Shown: one piece after another, positions 11,779 to 33,118 of the stretch
Layout: every line of letters begins with the position of its first letter
Position numbering within the stretch: the first letter of the stretch is position 1
NCBI GenBank assembly: GCA_965366365.1
Contig: CBDUEV010000031.1
Coordinates: forward strand, 1-33,438
Reading direction: 5' to 3'
Length of the DNA stretch: 33,438 nt
From: an uncultured Acidimicrobiia bacterium
GTDB lineage: Bacteria > Actinomycetota > Acidimicrobiia > Spongiisociales > JAENVV01
Translations under genes and position numbers: made by a program
Notes under the pieces: generated by a model
Databases searched by the model: none
Seen by the model: only the letters and a program-made list of their open reading frames with translations
What the model was told of the DNA's origin: nothing

Positions 11779-11790
11779 CGATGGTGCTCC

Positions 11791-12579: not shown

Positions 12580-12599
12580 GTTCTGCTCCGTCTTCCTGA

Positions 12600-15502: not shown

Positions 15503-16338
15503 GCGAACATTCGGCAGCCGTGGCCGCCGCGCTCGGCGTCCCCGAGGACCTCGTCATCAAGTCGGCCACGGCGCGGGCCCAGGCTTCAGGAAGCACAACG
15601 GAGGAAGTCCTGGCGGCCTGGAGCGGCGGCGGAGAGGTCCCGGCGGCCGCTCCGAGCGCCACGCCCCCCGCCACCGACGAGGCCCAGGCGGCGACCCCAC
15701 CGGCTACCGATCCCGCTCCGGCCGACATGTCCCCGGAACCCGGGGAAGCCGGCGCCGAATCACCGCTTCCTGTGGAGGGCGCCCCTGTCTCGTCACCTGG
15801 CGGATCTGGCCCGGTCACCGTCATCGATCGCCGGGCGAAGGCCGCCCCGATACTGACCGGCCGCCGCGATCGACCCCTCCTGGTACTCGCCGGCCTCGTG
15901 GCATTGTTCGTCCTCGGCGCCGTCTTTGCCGTCAGCCTGCCCGGGGCTGAGGCTCGGAACCTGGCGGCCGATCAGCTGCCCGGAACCACTCCTCAGCTCA
16001 GCGAATTGGCCCAGGAAGGTAGAGAGATCTATCTCACGGAAGGTTGCTTCTACTGCCACACCCAACTCGTACGATCGGTGGTGACCGACGTCGGGCTGGG
16101 CACGGTGACCGAACCCGGGACCGCACCCAGCCTGTCACCCGAGACGTATGGCTTCCAGCGGGTCGGACCCGATCTCACCCACGTTGGATCGCGTGAGCCG
16201 ACCAACGATGCGGCCTGGCTGCGTAGCTACCTGGAAGACCCCACGGCCGAGCGACCGGGGACGCTCCAGCCCAGCTACGCGTACCTGTCGGACAATGAGA
16301 TGGACGCACTCGTGCAGTTCCTCCTGGAATCGGAGTAG
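15499..16338 (+). CDS. CcoO-like membrane-anchored monoheme cytochrome c with an N-terminal helical module
   Basis: GTG start overlaps the CcoN-like stop (GTGA) and is preceded by GGAGG. One TM helix, then REIYLTEGCFYCHTQLVR...GPDLTHVGSR...YLSD (CcoO-like). The ORF-track entry 14851..16338 is the same frame, over-extended. Confidence 0.8.
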   Translation: MSEHSAAVAAALGVPEDLVIKSATARAQASGSTTEEVLAAWSGGGEVPAAAPSATPPATDEAQAATPPATDPAPADMSPEPGEAGAESPLPVEGAPVSSPGGSGPVTVIDRRAKAAPILTGRRDRPLLVLAGLVALFVLGAVFAVSLPGAEARNLAADQLPGTTPQLSELAQEGREIYLTEGCFYCHTQLVRSVVTDVGLGTVTEPGTAPSLSPETYGFQRVGPDLTHVGSREPTNDAAWLRSYLEDPTAERPGTLQPSYAYLSDNEMDALVQFLLESE

Positions 16339-16343
16339 GTCGA

Positions 16344-17372
16344 ATGAGCGATTTTCTCGCCGCCGCCGCTGCCGCCGTAGGTGGGCCGGAAGAGCTCGTC
16401 GAGCGATCGGCCCGCGCCCGCGCCGCAGCCACGGGTGCGGACTACGAAGCGATACTCCAGGCTTGGGCCGGCGGCGGTGAAGCGCCTGCCCCGTCGACAG
16501 TGTCCGGTTCAGCACCTGCCGCCGCGGAGGAGCCATCGGCGCCGGAAACGCAGCCACCAGCCGAGGCACCTTCCGAAGCTCCGGCAGAGGCGCCGGACCC
16601 GCCCGCACCGTCGGGCGTGGAAGCCGCCGCGGACGAGGGTCGGGATGCTCCCCGCGTCGTCGAGGGCCCTCCCCCACCCGCAACGGTGAGCGTCGAGGAA
16701 GCCGCCGATTGGGAGGTGGTGACCACCGTCCCGGCTGCCGGCCTCAAGGAACGAACCGCTTCGCTCATTCCTGCCTGGCTGATGGGTTTCTTCGTTCTCA
16801 TTCCGCTCTTTGCGGTCGCCTACATCGCCGTGTACTCGAACGGACCTGAGTGCGGGTCGGGCGGCCAGCTCAGGGTCGATTTCCGCAATCAACTCGTCAA
16901 CTGCGACGGATCCGCCTACGAGGGCGCGGGCGGGCCTGGCGGTGGCGGGATCAACTACGTGGCGATCGGTGCGGACGTCTACACCAATGTGGCTCAGTGC
17001 GCAGGATGTCACGGTTCCGACGGTGGCGGTGGCAGTGCCGGCCCCACCCTCTTGGGGGTCAACGGGACCTTCGGTTCCTGCGCCGACCACCAACAGTGGA
17101 TCACTCTGGGCAGCCAAGGATGGATCGACACGATCGGCCCGAACTATGGGGATGCCAACAAGCCGGCCGGGGGCTTCGGAGCCAAGATGCCCGGTTTCGC
17201 CTCACTCACAGCCGAGCAACTCGCGGCCGTGACCGTGTACGAGCGGGTGGTGTTCGGCGGAGCAGGCATCGATGAAACACTCGAGAATTGTGGCCTCGTA
17301 GAGACCGAAGAGGCACCAGATGAGGCACCGACCGATGCCGAAACGACCCCAACCACAGAGCCCGCTTCCTGA
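16344..17372 (+). CDS. Membrane-anchored monoheme class-I cytochrome c (CcoP-like C-domain) with an N-terminal helical module
   Basis: GGAGTAGG Shine-Dalgarno. The N-terminal module and a Pro/Ala/Glu linker are followed by one TM helix, a single CAGCH, and an MPGF Met ligand. Confidence 0.8.
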   Translation: MSDFLAAAAAAVGGPEELVERSARARAAATGADYEAILQAWAGGGEAPAPSTVSGSAPAAAEEPSAPETQPPAEAPSEAPAEAPDPPAPSGVEAAADEGRDAPRVVEGPPPPATVSVEEAADWEVVTTVPAAGLKERTASLIPAWLMGFFVLIPLFAVAYIAVYSNGPECGSGGQLRVDFRNQLVNCDGSAYEGAGGPGGGGINYVAIGADVYTNVAQCAGCHGSDGGGGSAGPTLLGVNGTFGSCADHQQWITLGSQGWIDTIGPNYGDANKPAGGFGAKMPGFASLTAEQLAAVTVYERVVFGGAGIDETLENCGLVETEEAPDEAPTDAETTPTTEPAS

Positions 17373-17650
17373 TTTGGCGGCCCGGGTGGGCCACCAATCG
17401 ACCCCAAAACCCCTCCCACAGCGCATATTCTCGGGAATTTCCTGTATTTGGAGTGACTAATCACAAAATGACTAAAGATTTTGGTCACCACTTCCGATAC
17501 TATGCAGGTGCGGCTTCCCGCCTCAGGGCAGGGAGTCGCTGAAGACAACTGAGGTCGCCACGTTTATGCCTTGGGCACGTTCAGTGACCAAAGGTGTATC
17601 GGAAGCCTCCCAGCCCGCCCCGATGGCGGCTCTCAGTTGGATTCGAGGAA

Positions 17651-17680
17651 GGGCGAGGCTTCGGCCTCGCCCTTCTGTTT
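17651..17680 (+). terminator. Rho-independent terminator (GGGCGAGGC-TTCG-GCCTCGCCC followed by TTCTGTTT)
   Basis: Perfect 9-bp GC-rich stem, tetraloop and T-rich tail, seen directly. Confidence 0.6.
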
Positions 17681-17744
17681 GCCCAGCGCCTCGGTAGCCC
17701 GGCGCCTCGGTAGCCCAGCGCCCCGGTGGCCCAGCGCCTCGATT
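17681..17744. repeat. 4 x 16-bp tandem repeat (GCCCAGCGCCTCGGTA and variants)
   Basis: Direct reading gives units at 17681, 17697, 17713 and 17729. Confidence 0.8.
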
Positions 17745-17785
17745 GGACCGCTTCCGTCCAGCTCCGATGACTAACGTGACCCTCC

Positions 17786-18601
17786 ATGCCGGGAGTCATC
17801 AGCTTTCTGTCCGATTTCGGCCACGGAGACGAATTCGTGGGGGTGGTTCACGGCGTCATCGCCAAAGTGGCTCCTGATGTGCGAGTCATCGACGTGAACC
17901 ACGGAGTCGACCGAGGATCGATCCGCGCTGGAGCTCTGTCCCTCCTGCGAGCAATCCAATACCTCCCGGAAGGGGTCGCCCTAGCCGTGGTGGACCCGGG
18001 CGTCGGCACTGCGCGCGCTGCGATCGCCGTCCAGACCTCGTGGGGCTTCTTCGTGGGCCCAGACAACGGCCTCCTCTCGCCGGCGGTCGCCATGGTGGGC
18101 GGCGCCCACCGCGTGCACGCCATCGAGAATCCCGAGCTGATCATTCCGAGCCAGGGAGCCACGTTCGACGGACGGGATCGGTTCGCGCCCGCCGCCGCGG
18201 TGCTCGCCGACGGGCAGGCCGGCATCGAGGACATGGGACCGACCCTCGACCCCAACGAGTTGGTCCCCACCCTGCTGCCGCTGCCTGACGTCGACGGAGA
18301 TCATGTCCGAGGGGCAGCTTGGTGGATCGACCATTTCGGGAACGTGCAGACCAACGTCGCTCCCGCAGACCTCGCCGGGCTCGGAGCGGACGTCGGCTCC
18401 AACCTGGCTGTGCAGCTCGGGGCGGCGAGTCACGATCTCCCCTACGTGCGGGCGTACGGCGACGTGGCGTCCGGCGAGCCCATGGTCCTGATCGACTCCC
18501 AGGGCCTCGCAGCCATTTGCGTTCGCGATGGCAGGGCAGACGAGACGTTCGGCCTTGACGTGGACCGGCCCGTGACGTTCCGCTATCCGCCGGCCAGCTG
18601 A
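17786..18601 (+). CDS. SAM hydroxide adenosyltransferase (DUF62; fluorinase/chlorinase superfamily)
   Basis: N-terminal ISFLSDFG.GDEFVG..HGVI, VVDPGVGT and GPDNGLL motifs of the family. Confidence 0.8.
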   Translation: MPGVISFLSDFGHGDEFVGVVHGVIAKVAPDVRVIDVNHGVDRGSIRAGALSLLRAIQYLPEGVALAVVDPGVGTARAAIAVQTSWGFFVGPDNGLLSPAVAMVGGAHRVHAIENPELIIPSQGATFDGRDRFAPAAAVLADGQAGIEDMGPTLDPNELVPTLLPLPDVDGDHVRGAAWWIDHFGNVQTNVAPADLAGLGADVGSNLAVQLGAASHDLPYVRAYGDVASGEPMVLIDSQGLAAICVRDGRADETFGLDVDRPVTFRYPPAS

Positions 18602-19658: not shown

Positions 19659-19693
19659 TCAAGAGCTGATCGTGAAAACCCGATACCTGAAGG

Positions 19694-20296
19694 ATGGCGC
19701 GCCTCGACAACCTCATCCTCAGCGTCGCCTTGGTTCTCGTCGGATTCAGCACCGCGTCGGCATCCTACGAGGTGTCGGCAACCGGCCCGCCTCAGGGAGT
19801 GCCCTCTGAGTTCGCGCTCCCCTCCGTCGCAGCGCCCGACGCCAACCTCGTTCAACTTGACGACGTGGAAGAGGAGTTCCTGAGCCTTCTCAACGTCGAG
19901 CGAGCCGCCGTGGGGCTCCCCGCTCTGAGCAGGTATTTCGACCTCGAGGACGACGCAGCCGCCCACACGGCCGCGATGATCGAAACGGGGGACATCTACC
20001 ACTCCGCCGACCTGACCCTGGTCACGACCGGTTGGGAGGCCCTCGGCGAGAACGTCGGCTACGGACCCACGGTCGACAAGCTGCATACCGCCTTCATGAA
20101 TTCACCGCACCACCGCGACAACGTCGTCGGCGAGTACGACCGTGTCGGGATCAGCGCGGACCGCAACCCGTCCGGCGTGATCTTCGTCACGTTCATCTTC
20201 ATGAGGACGGCCGTCCCATCACCCGTCACACTGATTCCGGAGACCGCAGGGCCGGCCGCCGGGATCGCCGGGGCTCTCTGGCTGGGAGAGCAATAG
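19694..20296 (+). CDS. Secreted CAP/SCP/PR-1-like domain protein
   Basis: Signal peptide (LILSVALVLVGFSTASA), LN.ER...GLP.L, GENVGYG and HHRDNVVG.Y..VG motifs. Confidence 0.6.
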   Translation: MARLDNLILSVALVLVGFSTASASYEVSATGPPQGVPSEFALPSVAAPDANLVQLDDVEEEFLSLLNVERAAVGLPALSRYFDLEDDAAAHTAAMIETGDIYHSADLTLVTTGWEALGENVGYGPTVDKLHTAFMNSPHHRDNVVGEYDRVGISADRNPSGVIFVTFIFMRTAVPSPVTLIPETAGPAAGIAGALWLGEQ

Positions 20297-20308
20297 CTGC
20301 AAACCGGT

Positions 20309-20809
20309 TCACACCCTCCGGGTCATCACCGCCACCCGTCCAGTCGAGAGGATCTTCCTGCCTTTCTGGACGGCATCATGCGGCCCGCGCACATCGAGGC
20401 CCGATGCCTGCCAACGGGCGGCCACCTCTTCGAGTGGTTCGTCGGTCTCGAAGGCCACACCGGCCAGTGCGTCGCGCGGGGCGTCGATGACCTCGACGAG
20501 CAGTCCGGCGAGGACGAAGCCGGCACGTTGCCCGCGGCGCGTCTCTCCGATGCGGCGGACGTCTCCTCCTGCCTCGGCGAGTAGATCGAGCGTTCCTTCG
20601 AAGTTCGAGGCAGTGATGGCGACGTGGTCCACCCCCCACCCCGGAACCTCGACGGCGTCGGTCGGAACGTCGACCACCGTCACGGCGAGGGCGGGTTGCC
20701 GTCCCTCCCATCTCCAACCGGCCGGTCCGTCGATGATGGTCACGTTGTCGAGCCGCGCCACGGACGGGAATCCGAGCCGGTCGAGGGGAAACGAGAGCAC
20801 CGTGATCAC
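20309..20809 (-). CDS. Glyoxalase/bleomycin-resistance/dioxygenase (VOC) family protein (tentative)
   Basis: VDHVAI... pattern and size fit VOC-fold proteins, but motif support is weak. Confidence 0.4.
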   Translation of the reverse strand: MITVLSFPLDRLGFPSVARLDNVTIIDGPAGWRWEGRQPALAVTVVDVPTDAVEVPGWGVDHVAITASNFEGTLDLLAEAGGDVRRIGETRRGQRAGFVLAGLLVEVIDAPRDALAGVAFETDEPLEEVAARWQASGLDVRGPHDAVQKGRKILSTGRVAVMTRRV

Positions 20810-20876
20810 CCGCTCAGGCTACCCGCCCAACCGGACCCTCCCTCTCGCAGAAGGCGGCCGAGAATCGCGGCTCCCA

Positions 20877-21020
20877 GCGCAGAACGCCTACGGCGTTCTG
20901 CAACGCGTCCCCGACGCCCTACGTCCGGGAAATCGCGCCTCACAGCGCAGAACGCCGAAGGCGTCCTGCAACGCGTCCCCGACGCTCTGCGTCGGGGACG
21001 CGCAGCGTCGGGGACGCGCA
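20877..21020. repeat. Two tandem copies (~67-bp period) of a REP-like GC-rich palindromic element
   Basis: Unit: GCGCAGAACGCC-N3-GGCGTYCTGCAACGCGTCCCCGACGC.CT.CGTC.GGGA. Copy 2 contains a perfect 13-bp hairpin GCGTCCCCGACGC-TCT-GCGTCGGGGACGC plus an extra half-site. Confidence 0.7.
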
Positions 21021-21270
21021 AAGACCCAAGGAACCGAGATCGAACGCACCCCGCACTTCCCCGAACGGTTTACGGTCTCGCTTCGGCACCTTGGGCCTTG
21101 CTGATCTGAATGTACGAAGCCTGGTTAGCGGCGTCAACCCGGTCAATTTGGCCATATTTCGCGACTTCACTGCGGTTACCTGGCTATATTCGGTGCTAAC
21201 CAGCCATGGTTTTTCGCGACTTTTCCTGGTTATCCCCAGAATCCACAGCTTTCCACAGGCGGTTGTACAC

Positions 21271-21304
21271 AACCCTTGTAGACAAGTATCTCAAGGGTTT
21301 TTTT
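21271..21304 (+). terminator. Terminator-like hairpin AACCCTTG-(13 nt)-CAAGGGTT followed by T7, inside a lower-GC intergenic island (about 21090-21325)
   Basis: 8-bp stem with T7 tract on the plus strand, seen directly. The loop is long (13 nt). No plus-strand protein gene ends nearby. Confidence 0.4.
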
Positions 21305-21325
21305 GACACTCTCCGCGTGCCGCGT

Positions 21326-21754
21326 TCAGCGTCCGAATCCCGACCTGAGGAGGGGTCGGAACGAGACTTCGACAGCTTCGTAGACCTCACCGAGGATGGC
21401 GTCGAGTTCGTCGGCTGTCACGTGTTCGATGGCGGTCCTCCCCTGCAGGTGAATGCCGCCTTCTCGGTCGATCGTGTAGTGCACCCTCCAGGCGCTCTGG
21501 TTTCTGAAGAGAAGCTGTCGGTACACCTCGACGAGGTTGTCGGGCGGTCCAGGCAGCAGGTACGCCTCGTACCGCAAGGTCCGGTCGCCTACTTCGAACC
21601 AGACCGTCGTGTAGTCACGTGTCTCCTGAGACATCCTGACGGCCCACCGGCCATCTACCTGCTCGCGGTATTCGACCGCCGAATCGGGGTCTGCCACCCA
21701 AGCTTCGAGGGTTCGGGCGAGGATCGCCTCTGTCTCAGCTCGTGATGCCGGCAT
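21326..21754 (-). CDS. YbjN-domain protein (putative sensory-transduction-regulator / chaperone-like fold)
   Basis: ATG at 21752-21754 overlaps the mshA 3' end by 20 nt. Size and hydrophobic/acidic pattern are typical of YbjN/DUF proteins. The ORF-track start at 21919 over-extends. Confidence 0.5.
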   Translation of the reverse strand: MPASRAETEAILARTLEAWVADPDSAVEYREQVDGRWAVRMSQETRDYTTVWFEVGDRTLRYEAYLLPGPPDNLVEVYRQLLFRNQSAWRVHYTIDREGGIHLQGRTAIEHVTADELDAILGEVYEAVEVSFRPLLRSGFGR

Positions 21755-22955
21755 AGAGTTCGAGCAGTCGGTCTGCGGTTGCTTGCCAGGAGAACTGATC
21801 GGCGTAATCCAACGCTCCTTTGGAGAGCCGCTCGGCGAGTTCATCGTCGGTGAAGATCTCCAGAATGCGGGTGGCGAAGTTCTCAGGGGAGCCGGGGTTG
21901 ACCAGGAAGCCCGACTCATCGTCGGCCACCGCGTAGGAGAGGCCGCCTGCTTGGGCAGCCACCACGGGCACTCCGCACGCTTGGGCCTCGACCGCCACCA
22001 GCCCGAATGTCTCGCTCCGGGAGGGGAGGATCACCGCGTCTGCGGCGCGGTAGAACGTGACCAGATCGTCGTGTGGTTGCGGCTCGAAGAAGACGACGGC
22101 GTCACGCAGGCCAAGGCCGTCGACCATGGCGTGGAGGCGTGCCAGCTCTGCGCGCCCTCCCGGACCGCTGGCTCCGCCCACGATGACGAGGCGCGCATCG
22201 TCCAGTTTCTCGCGGACCAGAGCAAACGCCTCGACGGCCACATCCGGGGCTTTGAGGGCCTGGATTCGCCCAACGAAGAGCAGCAGCGGACCGTTCTCAC
22301 CCAAACCGAGTTCAGCACGTGCCCGAGGCCGGTCTCCGGGACGGAAGGTGTCGTGGTCGATTCCCGGTGGCGACACACAGAGCCGGGCAGGATCGGCACC
22401 GTAGTGATCGAGCAGGTCTTCTGCTTCGTAGGGAGTGGACCCGATCACGCAATCGGATCCGGCGATGACTTCGTGTTCAGCGGCGATCCGAACCACCGCC
22501 GAGGCGGGTTCGTCGTCCCGTCGGGTGGCGTCCTTCACCCGGCCAAGCGTGTGAAACGAGTTGGCGAGCGGCAAGTCGAGAATCCGCTTGACCATGAGAC
22601 CCGCCCAGCCGGACAGCCAGTAGTGACTGTGCACGAGGTCGTAGTTGCGGTGATTGGCCTTGGACCAGTCGATGACCGCCTCGGCGAATTCGAACACACA
22701 GTCCGTCAGCCCGGCGATCGGCACGGGGTGCAGAGGGCCGGCCGGGATGTGGATCACCCTGTAGTTGGGGGTGACCTGGACGATCGGTTCGAGGTCCGCG
22801 GAGGTGGCTCGTGTGAACACATCGACTTCGATGCCCCGGTCCGCCATGGTCTGAGCGAGCTCATGGATGTAGACGTTCATTCCCCCGGCGTCGCCCTGTC
22901 CAGGCTGCAGGAGGGGTGAGGTATGGAGGGAGAGGTAGGCAACCTGCTTGATCAT
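21735..22955 (-). CDS. mshA: D-inositol-3-phosphate glycosyltransferase MshA (mycothiol biosynthesis)
   Basis: N-terminal signature LSLHTSPLLQPGQGDAGGMNVYIHELAQTMADRGIEVDVFTR, and a GT4 fold with E..G..VVEA.ACG.PV. Confidence 0.9.
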   Translation of the reverse strand: MIKQVAYLSLHTSPLLQPGQGDAGGMNVYIHELAQTMADRGIEVDVFTRATSADLEPIVQVTPNYRVIHIPAGPLHPVPIAGLTDCVFEFAEAVIDWSKANHRNYDLVHSHYWLSGWAGLMVKRILDLPLANSFHTLGRVKDATRRDDEPASAVVRIAAEHEVIAGSDCVIGSTPYEAEDLLDHYGADPARLCVSPPGIDHDTFRPGDRPRARAELGLGENGPLLLFVGRIQALKAPDVAVEAFALVREKLDDARLVIVGGASGPGGRAELARLHAMVDGLGLRDAVVFFEPQPHDDLVTFYRAADAVILPSRSETFGLVAVEAQACGVPVVAAQAGGLSYAVADDESGFLVNPGSPENFATRILEIFTDDELAERLSKGALDYADQFSWQATADRLLELYAGITS

Positions 22956-23860
22956 GCGGAGCCCGCTACCTGATAGAGCGGTCGAGGCTGAGCGCCCAAC
23001 CGGTACTTGTAGTGCTCGTCGCCCTTCAGGAAATCGAAGACGGGCTTACCGCGTTCGATGGTGAGTTCGATCAACCTCCCCAACAGCACCACCCCCGGCG
23101 ACGAGTCCCTGAACTGGGGGTTGTACGAGGAGTTGTAGAGGTAGTAACCGTCAGAATCCTGGTATCCGAAACCGGCCGCCGTGACGTGCCCGTCCTCACC
23201 CACCAACGCATCGAGCCCCCATCCAGGCAGCTCAGCCAGGGCGGCGAACCAGGCCTCCATCTCCGCCGTCATGAACTCGCCTTTCTCCCCGGCGGCCATG
23301 CGGTGGAACCTCACGAAGTCATCGAACAGCGGGCCTGTCCCGGTGGCATGAACAAACCGGGCCGGACCCAGTGCGGCTTCGTAGCGCCGGCGTTTCCTCC
23401 GAAGTTCGTGGCGCTCCTTTTTGCCGATCAGGGTGAGGTATTCGTCGAACGTGTCGGGGAGGTCGAGCACCGCGGCACTGGCATGTTCGGCCGTCTCGCA
23501 GCCGAAGCCTGCGGCGATGGCCCCTTTGGCGAGGACCTCCGCCGCCTCGAGGGGCAAGGAGTCGAGCTCGAACCGCGTCCCGGACGGCAGGGACTCCAAT
23601 GTCGTGGCGAGTAGGCGCTCGATCCCGGACCCGACCGGGCTTCGGTAGTCGATGAGATCCGGGGATCCGACGAACTGCAAGACCCCATCGACGATGGAAA
23701 GCGGCAGCGCTCCCTCCTCATGCGCCACCAGATGGAGCTCCGCGCCGTCGGGTCGATGGTGCTCCCACACCGCCGACAGGAACCGAGGGCCGGCGAAGGG
23801 GCCGATCGACTTGGCCAACGGAGGGAGATCAAAGCTCGGGTTGTCCCACATGACTGTCAC
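22952..23860 (-). CDS. GNAT-fold acyltransferase (FemAB/CelD-BioF2-like family)
   Basis: ATGA overlap with the mshA start. The family call rests only on a judged pattern similarity to CelD-like Acetyltransf_6; no motif was verified. Confidence 0.5.
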   Translation of the reverse strand: MTVMWDNPSFDLPPLAKSIGPFAGPRFLSAVWEHHRPDGAELHLVAHEEGALPLSIVDGVLQFVGSPDLIDYRSPVGSGIERLLATTLESLPSGTRFELDSLPLEAAEVLAKGAIAAGFGCETAEHASAAVLDLPDTFDEYLTLIGKKERHELRRKRRRYEAALGPARFVHATGTGPLFDDFVRFHRMAAGEKGEFMTAEMEAWFAALAELPGWGLDALVGEDGHVTAAGFGYQDSDGYYLYNSSYNPQFRDSSPGVVLLGRLIELTIERGKPVFDFLKGDEHYKYRLGAQPRPLYQVAGSA

Positions 23861-24792
23861 CTGAAGTCCACCATCGACTCGACTGTTCCGACCGAGCGGC
23901 CGCCTCCGAGCACCTTTCGGTCACGAAGCTGATCACCAGACCCAACCGAGATGCCCAACGTTCTGATGGCGCCGATGATTCCCGCTTCGGCGCCTCGTTC
24001 GTCGCCGTCCCACGCTTTGGCGGCGAGGCCGATCCCGTTTCGGACCGAGACCCCGACACACCCTTCGGCACCCACTTTCGCAGCCGCGTTCAGACAGGTG
24101 GCGATACGCTGGTCGATTCTGCCGTTCTCCGAGGCGAGCGCCGGGAAGCGGTGCATGGCGGTCCAGGCCCGTTTGAAACGGCGGTCGACGCCCAACCGAG
24201 CGAAGGCGGTGGCCAGGCCGCGGGTCGACACCTCGAAAACGGGAGCTCCGCACCCATCCACGCCCGGGTCGCCGAGGTCCTCCCCGGTGACCTCTTGCAG
24301 CAGCGCGGCCACCCGCACCTGAAGCGGGTGCTCGGGTTCGAGATAGGTATCGGTGGGCCAACCGGCGGCCACGCACGCCGCCAACCAACCGGCGTGCTTG
24401 CCCGAGCAGTTGTGAAAGAGAGGACGTGGACCGCCGGCCCCGCCACGCACCGCCACGTCGCGAGCCGTGGCCGAAAGCGGGAAGTCCGGCGGCGTCTGCA
24501 GAGCAGACTCGTCGAGTCCGGCATTGGCGAGAATCTGTCGAACCAACGCCAGATGGGCTGGGAATCCGCCGTGGCTGGCGCAGGCGACTGCCAGTTCCTC
24601 GTCAACCAGCGCCGCTCCGGCCTCCAGAGTGATGGTTGCCTGGAAGGGCTTGACCGAGGAACGGGAGTAGAAACGACGATCGACGTCCCCCCAGGCGGCA
24701 CGCAGGCCGCCATCCTCGTTGCATACTGCCACTGCTCCGTGGTGTTCGGCTTCTACGACACCCGAGCGAACGACGCGGGCGAGCAGGCTCAA
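23857..24792 (-). CDS. L-asparaginase II family protein
   Basis: HHGAVAV....G......G......F.RSSVKPFQA and NCSGKHAGWLAAC motifs of asparaginase_2. ATGA overlap with the downstream GNAT gene. Confidence 0.8.
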   Translation of the reverse strand: MSLLARVVRSGVVEAEHHGAVAVCNEDGGLRAAWGDVDRRFYSRSSVKPFQATITLEAGAALVDEELAVACASHGGFPAHLALVRQILANAGLDESALQTPPDFPLSATARDVAVRGGAGGPRPLFHNCSGKHAGWLAACVAAGWPTDTYLEPEHPLQVRVAALLQEVTGEDLGDPGVDGCGAPVFEVSTRGLATAFARLGVDRRFKRAWTAMHRFPALASENGRIDQRIATCLNAAAKVGAEGCVGVSVRNGIGLAAKAWDGDERGAEAGIIGAIRTLGISVGSGDQLRDRKVLGGGRSVGTVESMVDFR

Positions 24793-25319
24793 CTGTCCGT
24801 CGACAGCTCTTCGGTCACCTGATCTCGGTAGATCCCCGTGATGCGTGCTTGAAGCAGGTCGAAACGCTCCTGAACCGCCCGGCGTTGCTCCGAAACGGCC
24901 GCTTCGGTCTCGGTCAATGTACGTTGGATGAGCAACAGATCCTCGTCGTCGAGATCGGGCATCCGCGTCAGGAAGTCGTCCTCGAGCACATCATCGATCG
25001 GGCGGCGGCGTTCGTCGGGGAGATCAGGTGAGAACTCTCCACGAACCCGACCCACCTGGCCACCGGCCTTTTCTCCGGCTCCGAGGATGTCGGCGAGAGC
25101 CTCGATCAAGGTGCGGGTCTCCTCTCCGCGGCGTTTGGCCAACTCGAAGTTGAGCAGGTCCATGCGGCCGTGCAGCAGGCGCCGATAGAACGAGAGCTCG
25201 GTCTCGACGTCGGCAGCCATGGCGCGACGCTCGCGCATCTCCGACACCTCGATCGTGTCGAGATCGGCTACGAAATCAGGCGACATGATGATGTCGATGC
25301 GTCGTCGTTGTTGTTCCAC
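24789..25319 (-). CDS. RsiG-like coiled-coil protein carrying two E(x)3S(x)2R(x)3Q(x)3D c-di-GMP-binding-type motifs (putative anti-sigma factor)
   Basis: Motif 1 ETELSFYRRLLHGRMD (Q replaced by H). Motif 2 EAAVSEQRRAVQERFD (perfect). GTG start with an AAGGAG Shine-Dalgarno 6 nt upstream. ATGA overlap with the asparaginase gene. Confidence 0.5.
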   Translation of the reverse strand: MEQQRRRIDIIMSPDFVADLDTIEVSEMRERRAMAADVETELSFYRRLLHGRMDLLNFELAKRRGEETRTLIEALADILGAGEKAGGQVGRVRGEFSPDLPDERRRPIDDVLEDDFLTRMPDLDDEDLLLIQRTLTETEAAVSEQRRAVQERFDLLQARITGIYRDQVTEELSTDS

Positions 25320-25328
25320 GGTTCTCCT

Positions 25329-26423
25329 TCAGCAGTTCCGAGCCAGGGTCGGATAGGGGTTGACCCATCCGCCCTGGACCGGGCGTATCCCAAAATGCAG
25401 GTGCGGCGCGCCACCCCGAGCATTCCCGGAATCGCCGGTGTAGCCGATGACCTGGCCGATCGTGACCTGTTGTCCGTTCTTCAATCCTGAAGCGTATCCG
25501 CTCAGATGGGCGTAATAGTACTGGACTCCGTAGTCGGATTTCACCCAGAGGGCCGTGCCGCCGAGTCCGCCGCTCCGCAGTTCGACGATTCCGTTCGCCA
25601 CGGCGACCTGGGGATGGCCGTACGGCGAGAAGATGTCGGTTCCCTGGTGGGTGCGACCACCTGTGCGAGGGAACCCCCAGTCGTTGATGAAGGAGATGGG
25701 CTCCCCCATCGGGCAGATGAACCCAGGAGTCGCCTCGGCAGGAAGGCCGCCGGCGGCGCCTTTGGCGGCCGCGGCACGAGCGGCCGCCTCGCGCGCCAGT
25801 TGTTGTTCGTACTCGGCCAGCAATCGCGTGCACTCTCCCGAGAGCTCCTGATAGGAATTCTGGCCCTCGATGAGAGCGGCGGCCATCTCTTTCTGAAAAG
25901 CCTCTGCGGAGGCCCGCAGATCAGCGAGTTCCTCCTGGGCTGCCTTCAGCCCTGTACGCAGTTCCTCGGCTTCGGCGGCGAGCACATCGAGGCGAGCCAC
26001 GGCGGCAATGTCTTCATCGGTTGCCGACTCGAGGAAGGTGCGGCCTGTGAGGAACGTCTCGACATTGTCGGAGAGCAGCAGGATATCCGTGGAGCGCGCC
26101 CCGCCGGCCATGTAGAGCTGAACCGCCCGCTCGATGACGGCGTGGCGGGTGGTGGCGAGTTCGTCCTCGTGGACTTCGATTTCGGCCCTCATGCCCAGCT
26201 CTTGAAAGGAGACGGCCTCGAGTCGGCTGTTCGACTCGTTGTAGGCGGCCGCGGCGGCATCGAAGGTGGCCTGAGCCGCTTCGAACGTGGCGAGGGCTCG
26301 GGCGCTCTCTTCGCAGGCGGCGTCGACCTCGTCTTTGGTCACCGAGATCGCCGGGACGGCCAATCCCAGCACGACGCCGACAACGAGGAGAGTGAAGAGG
26401 ATGCGGACAACGCGGTTGCGCAT
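25329..26423 (-). CDS. M23-family metallopeptidase with an N-terminal signal anchor and coiled-coil region (EnvC-like)
   Basis: C-terminal HQGTDIF...G.PV.A.ANG.V......GG.G....V.H..G..YYYAHLS...GQ.VG.TGDSGNA...PHLHF, an M23 LytM domain. Start at ATG 26421-26423 (MRNRVVRILFTLLVVG...). Confidence 0.8.
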   Translation of the reverse strand: MRNRVVRILFTLLVVGVVLGLAVPAISVTKDEVDAACEESARALATFEAAQATFDAAAAAYNESNSRLEAVSFQELGMRAEIEVHEDELATTRHAVIERAVQLYMAGGARSTDILLLSDNVETFLTGRTFLESATDEDIAAVARLDVLAAEAEELRTGLKAAQEELADLRASAEAFQKEMAAALIEGQNSYQELSGECTRLLAEYEQQLAREAAARAAAAKGAAGGLPAEATPGFICPMGEPISFINDWGFPRTGGRTHQGTDIFSPYGHPQVAVANGIVELRSGGLGGTALWVKSDYGVQYYYAHLSGYASGLKNGQQVTIGQVIGYTGDSGNARGGAPHLHFGIRPVQGGWVNPYPTLARNC

Positions 26424-26560
26424 TGAGGGAAGGGTAATCCAGAAGGGTCCCGGTCTCTGGTCTTTCGCCCTGACCGGCGTGCGGGCAACGGACCCGAGAA
26501 ACCCAAGCTCCGCAAGGCAGAACGAGGTCCGGCGAGTATTCTCACATCGGAGAGGAAACC

Positions 26561-27085
26561 ATGGGATTGCTCGCTCAGCTCGGCTTCGTTGCCGAGCCAC
26601 CGAACGCTCTGCAGGTGGCGGCTCAGAAGCTGGGCTCCAGCCGGCAATGGGCGTGGGTGTTCTCGAAGACGCTCTATCCGATGGACCGGGTCATGTTCCG
26701 GCTCAGTGGTGGGCGCTTGACCCTTCCGAGCCTCCTGGCCGGTGTTCCGGTGATACTCCTCACGACCACCGGGGCACGCACCGGACAGCCGCGCACGATG
26801 CCCTTGCTCGGTATCCCTTTTGGCGACGACCTGGCGATCATCGGCTCGAATTACGGTCAGGAGGCCACGCCAGGCTGGGTCTACAACCTGGAAGCCGACC
26901 CCAACGCCGCCGTCGAGTATCGGGGAAAGAACGTCCGGGTGGTGGCCCGCCTCGCCGACGATGACGAGACGGCGAAGGCGTTCGAGGCGGCAGAGGACGT
27001 GTACCTCGGGTACGCCAAGTATCGGTCGCGCGCCGATCATCGACGCCTCAGGGTCTTCGTGCTCGAATCCCTCACCGCCGCCTGA
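26561..27085 (+). CDS. Deazaflavin (F420)-dependent nitroreductase-family oxidoreductase (FDOR/DUF385)
   Basis: LLTTTGARTGQPRTMPL...IIGSNYGQEATPGWVYNLEADP.A.VEY.G motifs. GGAGAGGAAA Shine-Dalgarno. Confidence 0.75.
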   Translation: MGLLAQLGFVAEPPNALQVAAQKLGSSRQWAWVFSKTLYPMDRVMFRLSGGRLTLPSLLAGVPVILLTTTGARTGQPRTMPLLGIPFGDDLAIIGSNYGQEATPGWVYNLEADPNAAVEYRGKNVRVVARLADDDETAKAFEAAEDVYLGYAKYRSRADHRRLRVFVLESLTAA

Positions 27086-27157
27086 CGACGAGTCCGCAGC
27101 GCGCTGCCCGGGTCGCGCACACCGAGCTCCGCTGCCGCGCAGCTATCCTCGCCGACG

Positions 27158-27526
27158 ATGAGAACTCTCCTCTTCGTTGCCGCCGGCGGCGCCGTCGGTA
27201 CGGCGGCACGCTATCTGGTCGGAACCTGGATGAAGAACGTCGGCACCCTCCCATGGGGCACCACGACGGTCAACCTCGCCGGGTCTTTTGCCCTGGGGAT
27301 GCTGGCGGGAGTCCTCGCCGAGGGAAGCAGGATCGACGCCGATCTCCGCACAGGCGTCACGGTCGGCATCCTAGGAGGGTTCACCACGTTCAGCACCTGG
27401 ACCGTGGAGTCTGTCGAGTTGATCGGATCGGGCAAATGGTCGCTGGCCGCTCTGAACATCTTCGGTGCCCTGGCGGCCGGCCTCGTGGCGGCCGGACTTG
27501 GGCTGGCGCTCGGCCGGGCCGTGTAA
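27158..27526 (+). CDS. crcB: Fluoride ion channel CrcB/FluC
   Basis: 122-aa, 4-TM protein with GGAVGTAARY...LPWGT...GSFALG...GILGGFTTFSTW motifs. Confidence 0.9.
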   Translation: MRTLLFVAAGGAVGTAARYLVGTWMKNVGTLPWGTTTVNLAGSFALGMLAGVLAEGSRIDADLRTGVTVGILGGFTTFSTWTVESVELIGSGKWSLAALNIFGALAAGLVAAGLGLALGRAV

Positions 27527-27530: not shown

Positions 27531-28538
27531 TCAGGAGACCATCCGCAGGATCGGCAGAAAGACGGCGGCGGCGAGCAGAGGACCATCCAGCTCCGAGAGA
27601 ATCCCCGGTGGGCGGTCCACGAGGTAGACCTCCCCGATCCGACACAGCGCCCCGAAGCCGCGCCCGGCTATCAACGCCATGGCAACCACGGCGCCTTCGA
27701 GCAGGAAATAGACCAGCTCGCTCTGCTCCCACCTCCAAGCCGCCAGGAGACCCGCCACAATGGCGCCGATCGCGCCGAGCACGTACGGATCGAGGAAGGG
27801 GACGGCGAATCGAGTGGCGAGCCATGTGGCCAGCCCGGCGACCGCCACCTGAACCAAGAAGATGCCGATGAGACGTTCCCCCGAGGCGCCGATCCTGACG
27901 AGAAGCAGCGAGGCGACACCCAGTCCCGCCACCAGCTGCACGATCAGGCTCGTAGAGAGAATGGTGAGGTGACGGGCGTCCTCCAAGATCACCGCCCATA
28001 CGAGGCTGGCGACGATGGCAAAAATGACGACGATGCCGTAGCCGGCGAACCCCTTGCCGAGTGACGCCATGCCTGCCACGGCGATGACGGCAGCCACGAC
28101 GGTGGCGAAGATCGGGCCGAGCTGGAGGTTCAGGCCGCCGTCATTGGTTTCCCGCCACAAGTCGAGCACCCACAGGCTCACCACACCTACGAGTGCTGCG
28201 CCAAACCAAGCGGGAGAGCCGAGGATGTTGGCGAGTGCCAGCACCACGAGGCTTCCGACAATGCCCGCCACATTGGTGATCGGGGTCTCTTCGACGTTGA
28301 TAGCGCCGCCGGAGACCGGGGGGATGAGCGCCACCTCGTCGCTGGGGGCGACGGCGTCCTCGGCCTGAGCCGGATCGCCGTTGAGCCAGACGCCGGCGTG
28401 CGAGACCCCGGCCCCGAAGGCAGGGCCGTATTTCTCAACGACTGCGGCAACCACGGAACCGACGGTTTCGCCGTCGACCTCGATTCGTGAGGTCCCCGCA
28501 ATCTCCCGCAAGTTGGCGAACAGTCTGACTCGAGCCAT
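27531..28538 (-). CDS. MoaD/ThiS-like sulfur-carrier domain (ending ...PPVSGG) fused in frame to a ~250-aa polytopic membrane domain
   Basis: N-terminal MARVRLFANLREIAG...VWLNG...DEVALIPPVSGG is a MoaD signature, and the ORF continues into about 8 hydrophobic segments with no stop. ATG at 28536-28538 is preferred over the ORF-track start at 28577. Confidence 0.55.
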   Translation of the reverse strand: MARVRLFANLREIAGTSRIEVDGETVGSVVAAVVEKYGPAFGAGVSHAGVWLNGDPAQAEDAVAPSDEVALIPPVSGGAINVEETPITNVAGIVGSLVVLALANILGSPAWFGAALVGVVSLWVLDLWRETNDGGLNLQLGPIFATVVAAVIAVAGMASLGKGFAGYGIVVIFAIVASLVWAVILEDARHLTILSTSLIVQLVAGLGVASLLLVRIGASGERLIGIFLVQVAVAGLATWLATRFAVPFLDPYVLGAIGAIVAGLLAAWRWEQSELVYFLLEGAVVAMALIAGRGFGALCRIGEVYLVDRPPGILSELDGPLLAAAVFLPILRMVS

Positions 28539-28594
28539 GCGTAGCAGCCTACCTGCCCCTGGCCGCGCGACGGCCATTCCGACGAGGACGCGAC

Positions 28595-32104: not shown

Positions 32105-33118
32105 ATGGCCCGTACCCCCATCGATCGGGCCGTTACATTGGGCGTCGTGCCCATCGACACCACCTTCTCGATCCAACCGCTCCGCATGAACCGCCACCTC
32201 CCCGACGTGGTGGAGATCATGAACCTGCGCGCCGAGCACTTCGATGAGCCGGCGAGGAGAACGTTGGAAGCGGTGACCGTCTACTGGGAGACCCAAGCCA
32301 ACTTCAACCCGTCTCGAGACGCGGTGGTGGCGCTGGCGGACGGCCGGATCGTCGCCTTCGCCCGTGTCCATTGGTACGACGAGAACAACGGCCCCCGGGT
32401 GTACTTCCACGACGCCCACGTACACCCCGGATGGTTTCGAAGGGGCATCGGGACCGCGCTCCTGGACTGGTTGAGCCGCCGCATCGACGAGATGGCGTCC
32501 GCCCACGCCGTCCGGCCGGCGGAGCGGCGGACGATGACCAACGACTTCGACGAAGCCCCTTCCACGATGCTGCCGGTTGCGGGATACCACCGAACGGGCT
32601 CCGACGCCACGCTCATCAGACCGAAACTCACGGACGTTCCCGAGGCCGAGCTGCCCATGGGCTTGGAGATCCGGCCGGTTACGGAGCACGACTACCGCGC
32701 CATCTATCGAGCCGACGTGGAAGCTTTTCGCAACCACCGAGGAGTCGGTGACCAGGGCGAGGCGGGTTGGCAGCGTTTTCGATTCGATCCGCGCTTCGAT
32801 CCCACCCTCTGGAAGGTGGCGTGGCATGGCGATAGCGTGGTCGGGCAGGTCCGCACTTTCGTCGACCAGGAAGAGAACCAGGCCACAGGCCGGCGTAGAG
32901 CATGGACCGAAGACATCTCCGTTCAGCGCGACTGGAGAAACCAAGGGGTCGCCCGGGCCTTGATCTGTGCCAGTCTGCGCGACCTCCACGATCGGGGATT
33001 CGAGGAGGCCGCTCTGTCGGTGCACACCGAGAATCCCACCGGAGCGTTCCACCTCTACACCGACATGGGCTATCAGGTGGTCTCGACCTTCACGGAGTGG
33101 TCGCGCCGTGTCGAGTGA
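32105..33118 (+). CDS. Tandem-GNAT N-acetyltransferase (MshD-like mycothiol synthase candidate)
   Basis: Two GNAT cores (RRGIGTALL; RNQGVARALI). The ORF-track entry 31433..33118 over-extends 5' across the convergent hydrolase gene. ATG start at 32105. Confidence 0.7.
   Translation: MARTPIDRAVTLGVVPIDTTFSIQPLRMNRHLPDVVEIMNLRAEHFDEPARRTLEAVTVYWETQANFNPSRDAVVALADGRIVAFARVHWYDENNGPRVYFHDAHVHPGWFRRGIGTALLDWLSRRIDEMASAHAVRPAERRTMTNDFDEAPSTMLPVAGYHRTGSDATLIRPKLTDVPEAELPMGLEIRPVTEHDYRAIYRADVEAFRNHRGVGDQGEAGWQRFRFDPRFDPTLWKVAWHGDSVVGQVRTFVDQEENQATGRRRAWTEDISVQRDWRNQGVARALICASLRDLHDRGFEEAALSVHTENPTGAFHLYTDMGYQVVSTFTEWSRRVE

What the first reader, a model, noticed from the sequence alone, without database searches (positions are those of the whole stretch)
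24789..25319. RsiG-like protein with two E(x)3S(x)2R(x)3Q(x)3D motifs heading a translationally coupled operon
The 176-aa coiled-coil protein carries ETELSFYRRLLHGRMD and EAAVSEQRRAVQERFD. These match the paired c-di-GMP-binding motif of the Streptomyces anti-sigma factor RsiG (established family knowledge), with the first copy degenerate (Q to H). No sigma factor gene is adjacent. Downstream it is chained by ATGA overlaps to asparaginase II, a CelD-like GNAT, mshA and a ybjN-like gene, an unexpected coupling of a second-messenger sensor to thiol and amide metabolism.
Basis: partly seen in the sequence, partly recalled or inferred. Interest (0 to 1): 0.6.

Follow-up and report, generated by a model that had tools for sequence, protein, structure and literature searches.

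The report
Ordinary RsiG anti-sigma factor in Acidimicrobiia
The gene encodes a typical member of the known RsiG family, a small protein that uses the signal molecule c-di-GMP to hold a WhiG-type sigma factor inactive; the one less expected feature is a gene neighbourhood conserved across many Actinobacteria.

Summary
The 176-aa ORF at 24789..25319 (-) and both motifs are real. It is a bona fide twin-motif RsiG:
- Pfam RsiG-like (PF22802) scores 62 bits against a cut-off of 27.
- A family profile matches S. venezuelae RsiG (PDB 6PFJ) at E = 1.6e-22 over the full length.
- An AlphaFold2 model (pLDDT 82) matches only RsiG chains in the PDB.

The "degenerate" Q-to-H in motif 1 is the family norm: 127 of 130 close relatives have it, and the literature reports it as frequent.

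The missing adjacent sigma factor is also normal. In Streptomyces, rsiG lies about 1.5 Mb from whiG.

The gene does not head the operon. An M23 peptidase gene ends 9 nt upstream on the same strand, as in 77 of 78 related loci. Only one of the four downstream junctions is an ATGA overlap.

The block M23–rsiG–asparaginase II–GNAT–mshA–ybjN is conserved across Acidimicrobiia. The rsiG–asparaginase II pairing also occurs in other Actinobacteria, so it is old synteny rather than a local oddity.

I could not find WhiG in this organism's own genome. Acidimicrobiales do encode WhiG orthologues, and conserved sigma-28-type promoters lie 5–7 kb from rsiG.

Verdict: a new member of a known kind, of low to moderate interest.

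The parts
24789..25319 (-). rsiG: a 176-aa twin-motif RsiG homologue, predicted to be a c-di-GMP-armed anti-sigma factor.
   Evidence: Pfam PF22802 at 62.2 bits, E = 3.8e-17. PDB 6pfj_T at E = 2e-7 for the single sequence and 1.6e-22 for the family profile. AF2 model with pLDDT 81.8, and the top four Foldseek hits are RsiG chains. The GTG start is supported by AGGAG 9 nt upstream and by invariant N-terminal residues R5, R6, R7 and D9 in 60 homologues.
25158..25205 (-). c-di-GMP-binding motif 1, ETELSFYRRLLHGRMD (aa 39-54), on helix alpha1. It has His at the Q position.
   Evidence: It aligns in register with EADLSYVRRMLQGRID of S. venezuelae RsiG, residues 64-79 (PMC7005675). E41, S43, R46, H50 and D54 are invariant and E39 nearly so in the 60-sequence alignment. 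His occupies this position in 127 of 130 relatives that have the motif.
24858..24905 (-). c-di-GMP-binding motif 2, EAAVSEQRRAVQERFD (aa 139-154), on helix alpha5.
   Evidence: It aligns in register with EQQISRRRHHLQRTAD of S. venezuelae RsiG, residues 162-177. E139, S143 and R146 are invariant, and Q150 and D154 are at least 90% conserved.
25329..26423 (-). M23 (LytM-type) peptidase gene directly upstream. It is the likely first gene of the transcription unit. The longest ORF extends to 26600.
   Evidence: Pfam PF01551, E = 2e-18. Public gene calls give 364 aa. Its stop lies 9 nt before the rsiG start. It is adjacent on the same strand in 77 of 78 related loci, with a median gap of about 9 nt.
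23857..24792 (-). Asparaginase II family gene. Its TTG start overlaps the rsiG stop (TTGA).
   Evidence: Pfam PF06089, E = 4e-84. It lies immediately downstream of rsiG in 79 of 81 related loci, mostly with a gap of -7 to +6 nt. It also follows rsiG in non-Acidimicrobiia loci.
22952..23860 (-). GNAT acetyltransferase of the Acetyltransf_6 (FemAB/CelD-like) type. An alternative start gives 22952..23851.
   Evidence: Pfam PF13480, E = 3.6e-22. Present in 66 of 74 related loci.
21735..22955 (-). mshA, the D-inositol-3-phosphate glycosyltransferase that carries out the first step of mycothiol synthesis. It has an ATGA overlap with the GNAT gene.
   Evidence: TIGR03449 is the best match at E = 1e-132 and 442.9 bits, slightly below the 462.5-bit cut-off. 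Present in 64 of 70 related loci.
21326..21754 (-). ybjN-like gene overlapping the end of mshA by 20 nt.
   Evidence: Pfam PF10722, E = 1.4e-9. Public gene calls give 142 aa. The mshA/SCO4205 overlap is a known actinobacterial signature (PMC4255298).
19659..19686 (+). Sigma-28/WhiG-type promoter-like site (TCAA-N16-CCCGATAC), ending 7 nt before the ATG of a CAP/SCP-domain gene (19694..20296). It is an inferred WhiG target.
   Evidence: The same motif lies upstream of the CAP homologue in 17 of 22 related loci, with variable spacer sequence. The background rate is 0.04 matches per kb.
17473..17685 (+). Second sigma-28/WhiG-type promoter-like site (TAAA-N16-TCCGATAC, 17473..17500), followed by a candidate small RNA of about 180 nt that ends in a terminator-like hairpin (17647..17677).
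   Evidence: There is an invariant GCACGUUCA loop in a hairpin whose stem changes by compensatory substitutions, and an invariant AAGCCUCCCAGCCCGCCCC. It matches no Rfam family.

Best explanation
The ORF encodes an orthologue of RsiG, the actinobacterial anti-sigma factor armed by c-di-GMP, in an uncultured Acidimicrobiia bacterium.

Shown here:
- Family membership.
- Both c-di-GMP motifs, in register with the crystallised protein.
- The RsiG fold, by prediction.
- Conservation of residues that contact c-di-GMP and sigma domain 4 in the S. venezuelae complex.

Inferred from the S. venezuelae and Rubrobacter structures: helices alpha1 (aa 25-63) and alpha5 (aa 125-175) pack as an antiparallel coiled coil. 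[quoted passage not shown] The loaded protein wraps a WhiG-type (sigma-28 family, WhiG2 clade) sigma factor and keeps it off RNA polymerase. When c-di-GMP falls, WhiG is released and transcribes its regulon.

The gene is probably co-transcribed with an upstream M23 peptidase gene and with the downstream asparaginase II, GNAT, mshA and ybjN genes. This order is an old actinobacterial arrangement. Nothing here shows that RsiG acts on those neighbouring gene products.
For: - Pfam RsiG-like, 62.2 bits against a cut-off of 27, two stretches.
- phmmer to 6pfj_T at E = 2e-7 over aa 18-167, and to Rubrobacter RsiG at E about 3e-3.
- The family profile hits 6pfj_T at E = 1.6e-22 and Rubrobacter RsiG at E = 5e-6, with nothing else in the PDB at E <= 0.01.
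- The AF2 model has pLDDT 81.8 and pTM 0.72. The Foldseek top four hits are 6pfv/6pfj RsiG chains with probability 1.00 and TM 0.57-0.67. The next hit has E > 1.
- Both motifs are present in 123 of 134 relatives.
- The alignment to RsiG-Sv, read against the contacts listed in PMC7005675, keeps R54->R29, R57->R32, I183->I160 and Y187->Y164 (sigma-4 contacts). It also keeps Y69->F44, I80->L55, V95->L71 and L99->L75 (sigma-2 pocket) and R115->R91 (stacks on c-di-GMP). R29, L71 and Y164 are invariant in the 60-sequence family alignment, and L55, L75 and R91 are at least 90% conserved.
- Twin-motif RsiGs are already reported in Acidimicrobiales, 3 of 4 species, and His at the motif-1 Q position is frequent (PMC8325347).
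- RsiG always co-occurs with a WhiG homologue in reference genomes (PMC12871210).
- Acidimicrobiales MAGs encode WhiG-family sigma factors that keep the K/G/R c-di-GMP contacts (PLVKFVSGR), in the xerC-whiG-rpsB-tsf context.
- Sigma-28-type promoters are conserved 5-7 kb from rsiG in this window and in relatives.
Against: - No WhiG gene could be tied to this organism. None lies in the window or in any of about 150 RsiG loci held. The Acidimicrobiales WhiG genes I found come from other samples.
- D142 of RsiG-Sv forms a salt bridge to WhiG R43. It aligns with R119 here, and the alignment of that linker region is weak.
- c-di-GMP binding and sigma binding are untested.
- No diguanylate cyclase or phosphodiesterase gene is in the window.
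- The tight, near-universal linkage to an M23 peptidase and to asparaginase II is not explained by the anti-sigma model.
Confidence: 0.8

Rival explanations
1. It has the RsiG fold and binds c-di-GMP, but in this lineage its main partner is not WhiG. It instead regulates something encoded in its own conserved operon, such as the M23 cell-wall peptidase or the asparaginase II/GNAT/MshA enzymes, and so ties c-di-GMP to envelope or mycothiol physiology.
For: - M23-rsiG adjacency holds in 77 of 78 loci with gaps of about 9 nt. rsiG-asparaginase II adjacency holds in 79 of 81 loci, usually overlapping.
- rsiG-asparaginase II linkage persists in distant actinobacterial RsiG loci.
- No WhiG could be linked to this genome.
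- The residue aligned with D142, a WhiG salt-bridge partner in S. venezuelae, is not conserved.
Against: - The sigma-4 contact residues R29, R32, I160 and Y164 are kept.
- RsiG and WhiG2 co-occur strongly across Actinomycetota, r = 0.88 (PMC12871210).
- Conserved sigma-28-type promoters in the same loci imply an active WhiG-type sigma.
- Gene order alone is weak evidence of physical interaction, and mshA-ybjN is a known core block.
- Streptomyces-like rsiG loci have lost asparaginase II while RsiG function is retained.
Confidence: 0.12
2. It is a decayed or inactive RsiG relic: a coiled-coil protein that no longer binds c-di-GMP because motif 1 carries His instead of Gln.
Against: - His is the norm at this position in the clade, 127 of 130.
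- It is frequent in RsiG homologues generally, and the authors judged it able to make the same stacking contact (PMC8325347).
- All other motif residues are invariant or nearly so, as are 29 invariant columns across 60 homologues of 49-83% identity. That is strong purifying selection.
Confidence: 0.03
3. It is a chance motif match in an unrelated helical protein.
For: None beyond the general abundance of E, R and D in coiled coils.
Against: - Pfam E = 3.8e-17.
- Profile-to-PDB E = 1.6e-22 over the full length, with only RsiG chains hit.
- The fold search hits only RsiG.
- All 120 listed homologues, of 860 found, carry PF22802.
Confidence: 0.01

Closest known systems
Streptomyces venezuelae RsiG (Vnz19430, formerly AmfC; PDB 6PFJ/6PFV)
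   Same: - Twin E(x)3S(x)2R(x)3[Q/H](x)3D motifs at equivalent positions on alpha1 and alpha5.
- The same predicted antiparallel coiled-coil fold with a long linker.
- Several sigma-4 and c-di-GMP contact residues are kept.
- The gene is not next to its sigma factor gene.
   Different: - About 26-27% identity.
- 176 aa, compared with about 24 kDa for the Streptomyces protein.
- His instead of Gln in motif 1.
- The linker region (aa 64-124) is poorly conserved, and the D142 equivalent is Arg.
- The host is a non-sporulating, uncultured Acidimicrobiia bacterium, so the WhiG regulon must differ.
- The Streptomyces-like locus examined lacks the adjacent asparaginase II gene.
Twin-motif RsiG homologues already catalogued in Acidimicrobiia (Acidithrix ferrooxidans AXFE_25810, Ferrithrix thermotolerans SAMN02745225_00312, Ilumatobacter coccineus YM304_37910; Schumacher et al. 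2021)
   Same: The same class of bacteria and the same twin-motif architecture. The paper reports His as a frequent motif-1 variant among RsiG homologues generally. These are the published precedent for exactly this kind of protein.
   Different: - None has been studied biochemically.
- The window's species is not among the GTDB representatives; the best match is 68% identity.
- The conserved M23-rsiG-asparaginase II-GNAT-mshA block was not discussed in the papers I could read.
Rubrobacter radiotolerans RsiG (PDB 7LQ2-7LQ4), the single-motif homodimeric form
   Same: The homologous alpha1 helix and motif (E about 3e-3 for the single sequence, 5e-6 for the profile). It is a c-di-GMP-dependent anti-sigma for WhiG in a unicellular actinobacterium, where the switch controls type IV pili rather than sporulation.
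   Different: The Rubrobacter protein has one motif and works as a homodimer. The window protein has two motifs in one chain and should work as a monomer.
FlgM, the classical anti-sigma-28 factor
   Same: It inhibits a FliA/sigma-28 family sigma factor by binding several of its domains.
   Different: It is unrelated in sequence and fold, needs no nucleotide ligand, and is regulated by secretion. No FlgM family match was returned for this protein.

Membership tests
RsiG (c-di-GMP-armed anti-sigma factor of WhiG; Pfam PF22802) | Significant match to the curated family model. | tested here: met
   PF22802 at 62.2 bits against a gathering cut-off of 27, E = 3.8e-17, two stretches. The identical protein carries PF22802 in the precomputed table.
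RsiG (c-di-GMP-armed anti-sigma factor of WhiG; Pfam PF22802) | Full-length homology to a structurally and functionally characterised RsiG. | tested here: met
   6pfj_T at E = 2e-7 over aa 18-167. The family profile gives E = 1.6e-22 over positions 20-175, and only RsiG chains are hit.
RsiG (c-di-GMP-armed anti-sigma factor of WhiG; Pfam PF22802) | E(x)3S(x)2R(x)3[Q/H](x)3D motif on each of two helices, at equivalent positions. | tested here: met
   The motifs are at aa 39-54 and 139-154. They align in register with RsiG-Sv residues 64-79 and 162-177. The two halves align to each other at the same offset.
RsiG (c-di-GMP-armed anti-sigma factor of WhiG; Pfam PF22802) | Antiparallel coiled-coil fold with the two motifs facing each other. 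| tested here: inconclusive
   The AF2 model has helices at aa 25-63 and 125-175, each with pLDDT above 90. Its only significant PDB matches are RsiG chains, TM 0.57-0.67. The topology therefore matches.
RsiG (c-di-GMP-armed anti-sigma factor of WhiG; Pfam PF22802) | Binds c-di-GMP. | not testable with these tools
   This needs DRaCALA, ITC or fluorescence polarisation on purified protein. All five contact residues of each motif are present (with the accepted His in motif 1), as is the loop Arg equivalent to R115.
RsiG (c-di-GMP-armed anti-sigma factor of WhiG; Pfam PF22802) | A cognate WhiG (WhiG2-clade sigma-28) encoded in the same genome and bound by the protein. | tested here: inconclusive
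   - No sigma factor lies in the window or in any RsiG locus held.
- Acidimicrobiales WhiG-family sigma factors with the K/G/R contacts exist, in the xerC-whiG-rpsB context, but none could be tied to this organism.
- Indirect support comes from conserved sigma-28-type promoters in the window.
- The literature reports that RsiG always co-occurs with WhiG.
RsiG (c-di-GMP-armed anti-sigma factor of WhiG; Pfam PF22802) | Restricted to Actinobacteria/Actinomycetota. | tested here: met
   Most of the 80 best genome matches are labelled Acidimicrobiia or Actinomycetota MAGs; a few bins carry other or no taxon labels. The locus includes the mycothiol gene mshA with the overlapping ybjN-like gene, an actinobacterial signature.
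Single-motif homodimeric RsiG (Rubrobacteria/Thermoleophilia type) | A small protein with only the alpha1 motif and no alpha5 helix. | tested here: not met
   Two motifs and a C-terminal helix at aa 125-175 are present. Rubrobacter RsiG aligns only to aa 18-67 or 18-95.

The most novel reading that the evidence does not exclude
rsiG sits in a deeply conserved actinobacterial block: ThiS-like, M23 peptidase, rsiG, asparaginase II, GNAT, mshA, ybjN. Its genes are nearly always overlapping or within a few bases of each other. The most novel reading has two parts.
1. This coupling is functional. RsiG dosage, or RsiG itself, would link c-di-GMP levels to cell-wall remodelling and mycothiol supply.
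2. In Acidimicrobiia the WhiG regulon includes the neighbouring CAP/SCP-domain secreted protein and a previously undescribed small RNA of about 180 nt, with a C-rich element that resembles an anti-Shine-Dalgarno sequence. Both sit behind conserved sigma-28-type promoters.
Probability: 0.2. Interest if true: 0.5.

Novelty: new member of a known kind. Interest (0 to 1): 0.25.

Why it matters
As an identification it adds little. RsiG is a described family with crystal structures and a Pfam model, and twin-motif members are already reported in Acidimicrobiales. This protein fits the family on every point I could test.

Two by-products have modest value.
- rsiG is locked into an old gene block with an M23 peptidase, asparaginase II and the mycothiol gene mshA across Acidimicrobiia, and partly across other Actinobacteria. 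The papers I could read do not discuss this. It may mark the ancestral position of the gene, or a physiological link worth one RT-PCR and one knockout.
- Conserved sigma-28-type promoters next to the locus give a first handle on what a WhiG/RsiG/c-di-GMP switch controls in uncultured, non-sporulating Acidimicrobiia. The candidates are a secreted CAP-domain protein and a candidate small RNA.

Tried and rejected
- **Sigma factor in the window.** I ran Pfam on about 29 ORFs in all, the roughly 20 outside the operon chosen by GC3. I found nuo, cytochrome bc, cbb3 oxidase, flotillin, a ThiS-like protein, CrcB and others, but no sigma.
- **Sigma-28 genes near rsiG elsewhere.** tblastn of 151 WhiG-like representatives against all loci held (1.8 Mb) found none near any Acidimicrobiia rsiG.
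- **Linking WhiG to this organism.** I went from WhiG-Sv (recovered from a PDB alignment) to a protein search that returned only Streptomyces. I then searched representatives clustered at 50% identity, looked up cluster names, which identified an Acidimicrobiales WhiG, P0273, and ran a final protein search. No WhiG hit shared a contig length with any RsiG contig. Three look-ups gave samples (ERZ27237xxx) different from the window's (ERZ250434xx). The direct link therefore failed.
- **Organism identity.** The window's species is not among the GTDB representatives; the best RsiG match is 68%. The cluster look-up gave no name for the exact protein.
- **Promoters and terminators.** The sigma-70 promoter and intrinsic terminator scan of 20200..27300 gave nothing above shuffled expectation. 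It therefore gives no information on the operon's boundaries.
- **NCBIfam.** It has no model that hits RsiG, asparaginase II or the GNAT here.
- **Small RNA.** Rfam at the gathering threshold on the whole window found nothing, and the E-value mode on 17380..17800 gave only chance-level hits. RNAalifold on the MAFFT alignment of the candidate RNA gave a meaningless 4-pair consensus because the alignment was poor. Folding each sequence separately was more informative.
- **Two-GNAT protein.** I considered that the protein at 32105..33118 is MshD. It scores only 36 bits against a 163-bit cut-off, so I do not call it MshD.
- **Literature.** A search for a link between RsiG and asparaginase found nothing relevant.
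Full report
**The observation.** The minus-strand ORF 24789..25319 exists. It starts with GTG, has AGGAG 9 nt upstream, and encodes 176 aa. ETELSFYRRLLHGRMD occupies aa 39-54 and EAAVSEQRRAVQERFD occupies aa 139-154.

- asparaginase II (PF06089, E = 4e-84);
- an Acetyltransf_6 GNAT (PF13480);
- MshA (TIGR03449 is the best match at 442.9 bits, just under its 462.5-bit cut-off);
- a YbjN-like gene.

Two details are wrong. First, the gene does not head the operon. An M23 peptidase gene on the same strand stops 9 nt before the rsiG start. Second, the junctions are TTGA, GTGA (or a 5-nt gap if the start used in public gene calls is taken), ATGA and a 20-nt overlap, not a chain of ATGA.

**What the protein is.** Pfam's RsiG-like model (PF22802) matches at 62.2 bits against a cut-off of 27, in two stretches, one per half of the protein.

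phmmer against all PDB chains finds S. venezuelae RsiG (6pfj_T, deposited as "AmfC protein") at E = 2e-7 over aa 18-167. It finds the three Rubrobacter radiotolerans RsiG entries at E about 3e-3 over the first helix. A profile built from 60 homologues raises these to E = 1.6e-22 (full length) and 5e-6, and nothing else in the PDB passes E = 0.01.

An AlphaFold2 model from the same alignment has mean pLDDT 81.8. It shows two long helices (aa 25-63 and 125-175, each above pLDDT 90) joined by a partly disordered linker. Foldseek against the PDB returns four RsiG chains of 6PFV/6PFJ (probability 1.00, TM 0.57-0.67) and then nothing below E = 1. I could not read the model's coordinates, so I did not measure whether the motifs face each other. 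The inference rests on the in-register alignment to the crystal structure.

**Residue-level reading.** I used the alignment, an offset of 23 between PDB chain numbering and native numbering, and the contacts listed in PMC7005675.
- All ten motif residues map onto E64/S68/R71/Q75/D79 and E162/S166/R169/Q173/D177, with H50 in place of Q75.
- The loop arginine that stacks on c-di-GMP (R115) maps to R91.
- The sigma-4 contacts R54, R57, I183 and Y187 map to R29, R32, I160 and Y164.
- The sigma-2 pocket residues Y69, I80, V95 and L99 map to F44, L55, L71 and L75.
- R29, L71 and Y164 are invariant in the 60-sequence family alignment. L55, L75 and R91 are at least 90% conserved.
- D142, which forms a salt bridge to WhiG R43, aligns with R119. 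That part of the alignment is weak.

**The "degenerate" first motif.** Among 134 relatives, 123 carry both motifs. The Q position of motif 1 is His in 127 and Gln in 1. In motif 2 it is Gln in 122. Schumacher et al. 2021 already reported that Gln in motif 1 "is frequently replaced by a histidine", and that His can make the same stacking contact (PMC8325347). This is the family norm, not decay.

**Who carries it.**
- The identical protein occurs on 17 metagenome contigs.
- The protein search returned 860 relatives. All 120 listed carry PF22802, and those with names are called "aerial mycelium formation protein" from Acidimicrobiia.
- 339 GTDB species encode a relative. Most of the best 80 are labelled Acidimicrobiia or Actinomycetota MAGs, and the closest is 68% identical.
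- Twin-motif RsiGs were already reported in 3 of 4 Acidimicrobiales reference genomes: Acidithrix, Ferrithrix and Ilumatobacter.

**The missing sigma factor.** None is encoded in the window or near any Acidimicrobiia rsiG locus I held. This is normal for the family. [quoted passage not shown] I tried to find the partner directly. I recovered WhiG-Sv from a PDB alignment and used it to reach an Acidimicrobiales WhiG-family sigma factor. That protein (P0273) is 56% identical to WhiG-Sv and keeps the K/G/R c-di-GMP contacts as PLVKFVSGR.

Many relatives of P0273 exist in Acidimicrobiales MAGs. In three look-ups, whiG lies in the housekeeping context xerC-whiG-rpsB-tsf-pyrH-frr. From memory, whiG has the same neighbours in Streptomyces; I did not check this. 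None of these could be tied to the window's organism, so that test remains open.

**Indirect evidence for an active WhiG-type sigma in this lineage.** I scanned with the published WhiG consensus, T(A/C)AA-N16-GCCGATAA.

The first site is TCAA-N16-CCCGATAC at 19659..19686. It ends 7 nt before the ATG of a CAP/SCP-domain gene. The same motif sits upstream of the CAP homologue in 17 of 22 related loci. The -35 and -10 elements are kept while the spacer sequence and length (15-17 nt) vary. The background rate is 0.04 matches per kb.

The second site, at 17473..17500, is conserved in about 19 loci and precedes a structured, non-coding element (described under "Noticed in passing"). Under the strict pattern there were 38 hits in 1.25 Mb of loci, against about 4 expected from base composition by my estimate. 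Many of those hits are syntenic copies. These are consensus matches and have not been shown to be transcription starts.

**The operon and its history.** I examined 83 non-redundant loci.

| Neighbour of rsiG | Loci where present / loci with enough flank | Typical gap |
|---|---|---|
| M23 peptidase, directly upstream | 77 / 78 | median about 9 nt |
| Asparaginase II, directly downstream | 79 / 81 | mostly -7 to +6 nt |
| GNAT (Acetyltransf_6) | 66 / 74 | not measured |
| MshA | 64 / 70 | not measured |

A scan of JGI metagenomes with RsiG-Sv shows the same linkage outside Acidimicrobiia.
- Loci 75% identical to RsiG-Sv have rsiG followed by asparaginase II (L097, L098, L102, L108).
- Loci at 37-46% identity have rsiG, asparaginase II and MshA, often with YbjN too (L118-L134).
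- One locus also has the M23 gene upstream (L116).
- A Streptomyces-like locus (L090, 93% identical) has lost asparaginase II. It keeps a GNAT of the Eis-like type after rsiG. L108 has rsiG, asparaginase II and then the Eis-like GNAT.

The overlap of mshA with the ybjN-like gene (SCO4205) is a known actinobacterial signature (PMC4255298). The "unexpected coupling" is therefore an ancient gene order. It may or may not be functional, and I found no paper that discusses it.

**How it most likely works.** The steps shown and the steps inferred are set out under Best explanation. In brief, the protein is a twin-motif RsiG with the contact residues in place. By analogy with the solved complexes, it should clamp a c-di-GMP dimer and sequester a WhiG-type sigma factor until c-di-GMP falls. 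The likely outputs in this non-sporulating lineage are unknown. The CAP-domain gene and the candidate small RNA are the first candidates.

The main rival, at about 0.12, is that this lineage's RsiG has another partner connected with its conserved operon.

**Verdict.** This is a new, unstudied member of a well-described family, in a class where the family was already catalogued. It fits on every test I could run. Interest is low to moderate. The conserved gene block and the nearby sigma-28-type promoters are the only parts that go beyond what is published.

Noticed in passing
window 17473..17685 (+); homologous sites in L010, L011, L013, L016-L018, L020-L022, L026, L028, L032, L033, L040, L045, L062, L068, L084: A candidate small RNA of about 180 nt lies behind a sigma-28-type promoter. 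It has a hairpin whose stem changes by compensatory substitutions (CCUUGGG/CCCAAGG, CCUUAGG/CCUAAGG, CCUCAG/CUGAGG) around an invariant GCACGUUCA loop. This is followed by an invariant AAGCCUCCCAGCCCGCCCC, which resembles an anti-Shine-Dalgarno sequence, and a terminator-like hairpin at 17647..17677. Its orientation relative to the neighbouring SAM hydrolase gene flips between lineages, so it is an independent unit. It matches no Rfam family.
   Followed up: partly
window 19659..20296 (+): A CAP/SCP-domain (YkwD-like) gene has a conserved sigma-28/WhiG-type promoter ending 7 nt before its ATG, which would give a leaderless or near-leaderless transcript. The motif is kept in 17 of 22 relatives that have the gene.
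   Followed up: partly
L013, L016-L018, L020, L028, L032, L040 (about 230-290 nt downstream of the site-B promoter): In several relatives a conserved ORF of about 30 aa, encoding a hydrophobic peptide (for example LRPATTIVIVVLLLLIAVAGIILMVQLLFP), follows the candidate RNA. The RNA could therefore be the leader of a small membrane-peptide gene in those lineages. No ORF of at least 25 aa with this pattern was seen in the window.
   Followed up: no
L158-L168 (Acidimicrobiales MAG contigs): The WhiG-family sigma gene of Acidimicrobiales sits between a xerC-like recombinase gene, overlapping it by 1-4 nt, and rpsB-tsf-pyrH-frr. From memory, whiG has the same neighbours in Streptomyces, which would argue for orthology; I did not check this.
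   Followed up: partly
window 32105..33118 (+): A 337-aa protein with two GNAT domains. Its best NCBIfam match is mycothiol synthase MshD, but at only 36 bits against a 163-bit cut-off. It lies about 7 kb from the mshA cluster.
   Followed up: partly
L090 and L108 (metagenome loci with Streptomyces-type RsiG): The acetyltransferase that follows rsiG or asparaginase II is of a different GNAT family in these loci (Eis-like: Acetyltransf_9/17 plus SCP2) than in the window (Acetyltransf_6). A GNAT slot is kept but its occupant changes. A GCV_T/YgfZ-like gene lies upstream instead of the M23 peptidase.
   Followed up: no
window 27531..28577 (-): A 348-aa protein with an N-terminal MoaD/ThiS-like ubiquitin-fold domain, fused to a hydrophobic C-terminal part that looks membrane-spanning by eye. 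It is conserved upstream of the M23-rsiG block in most relatives.
   Followed up: no
window 2599..17372: The rest of the window is dense with respiratory-chain genes: nuoA-D, a Rieske/cytochrome b/c cluster and a cbb3-type oxidase. This is an ordinary chromosomal core region, not an island.
   Followed up: no
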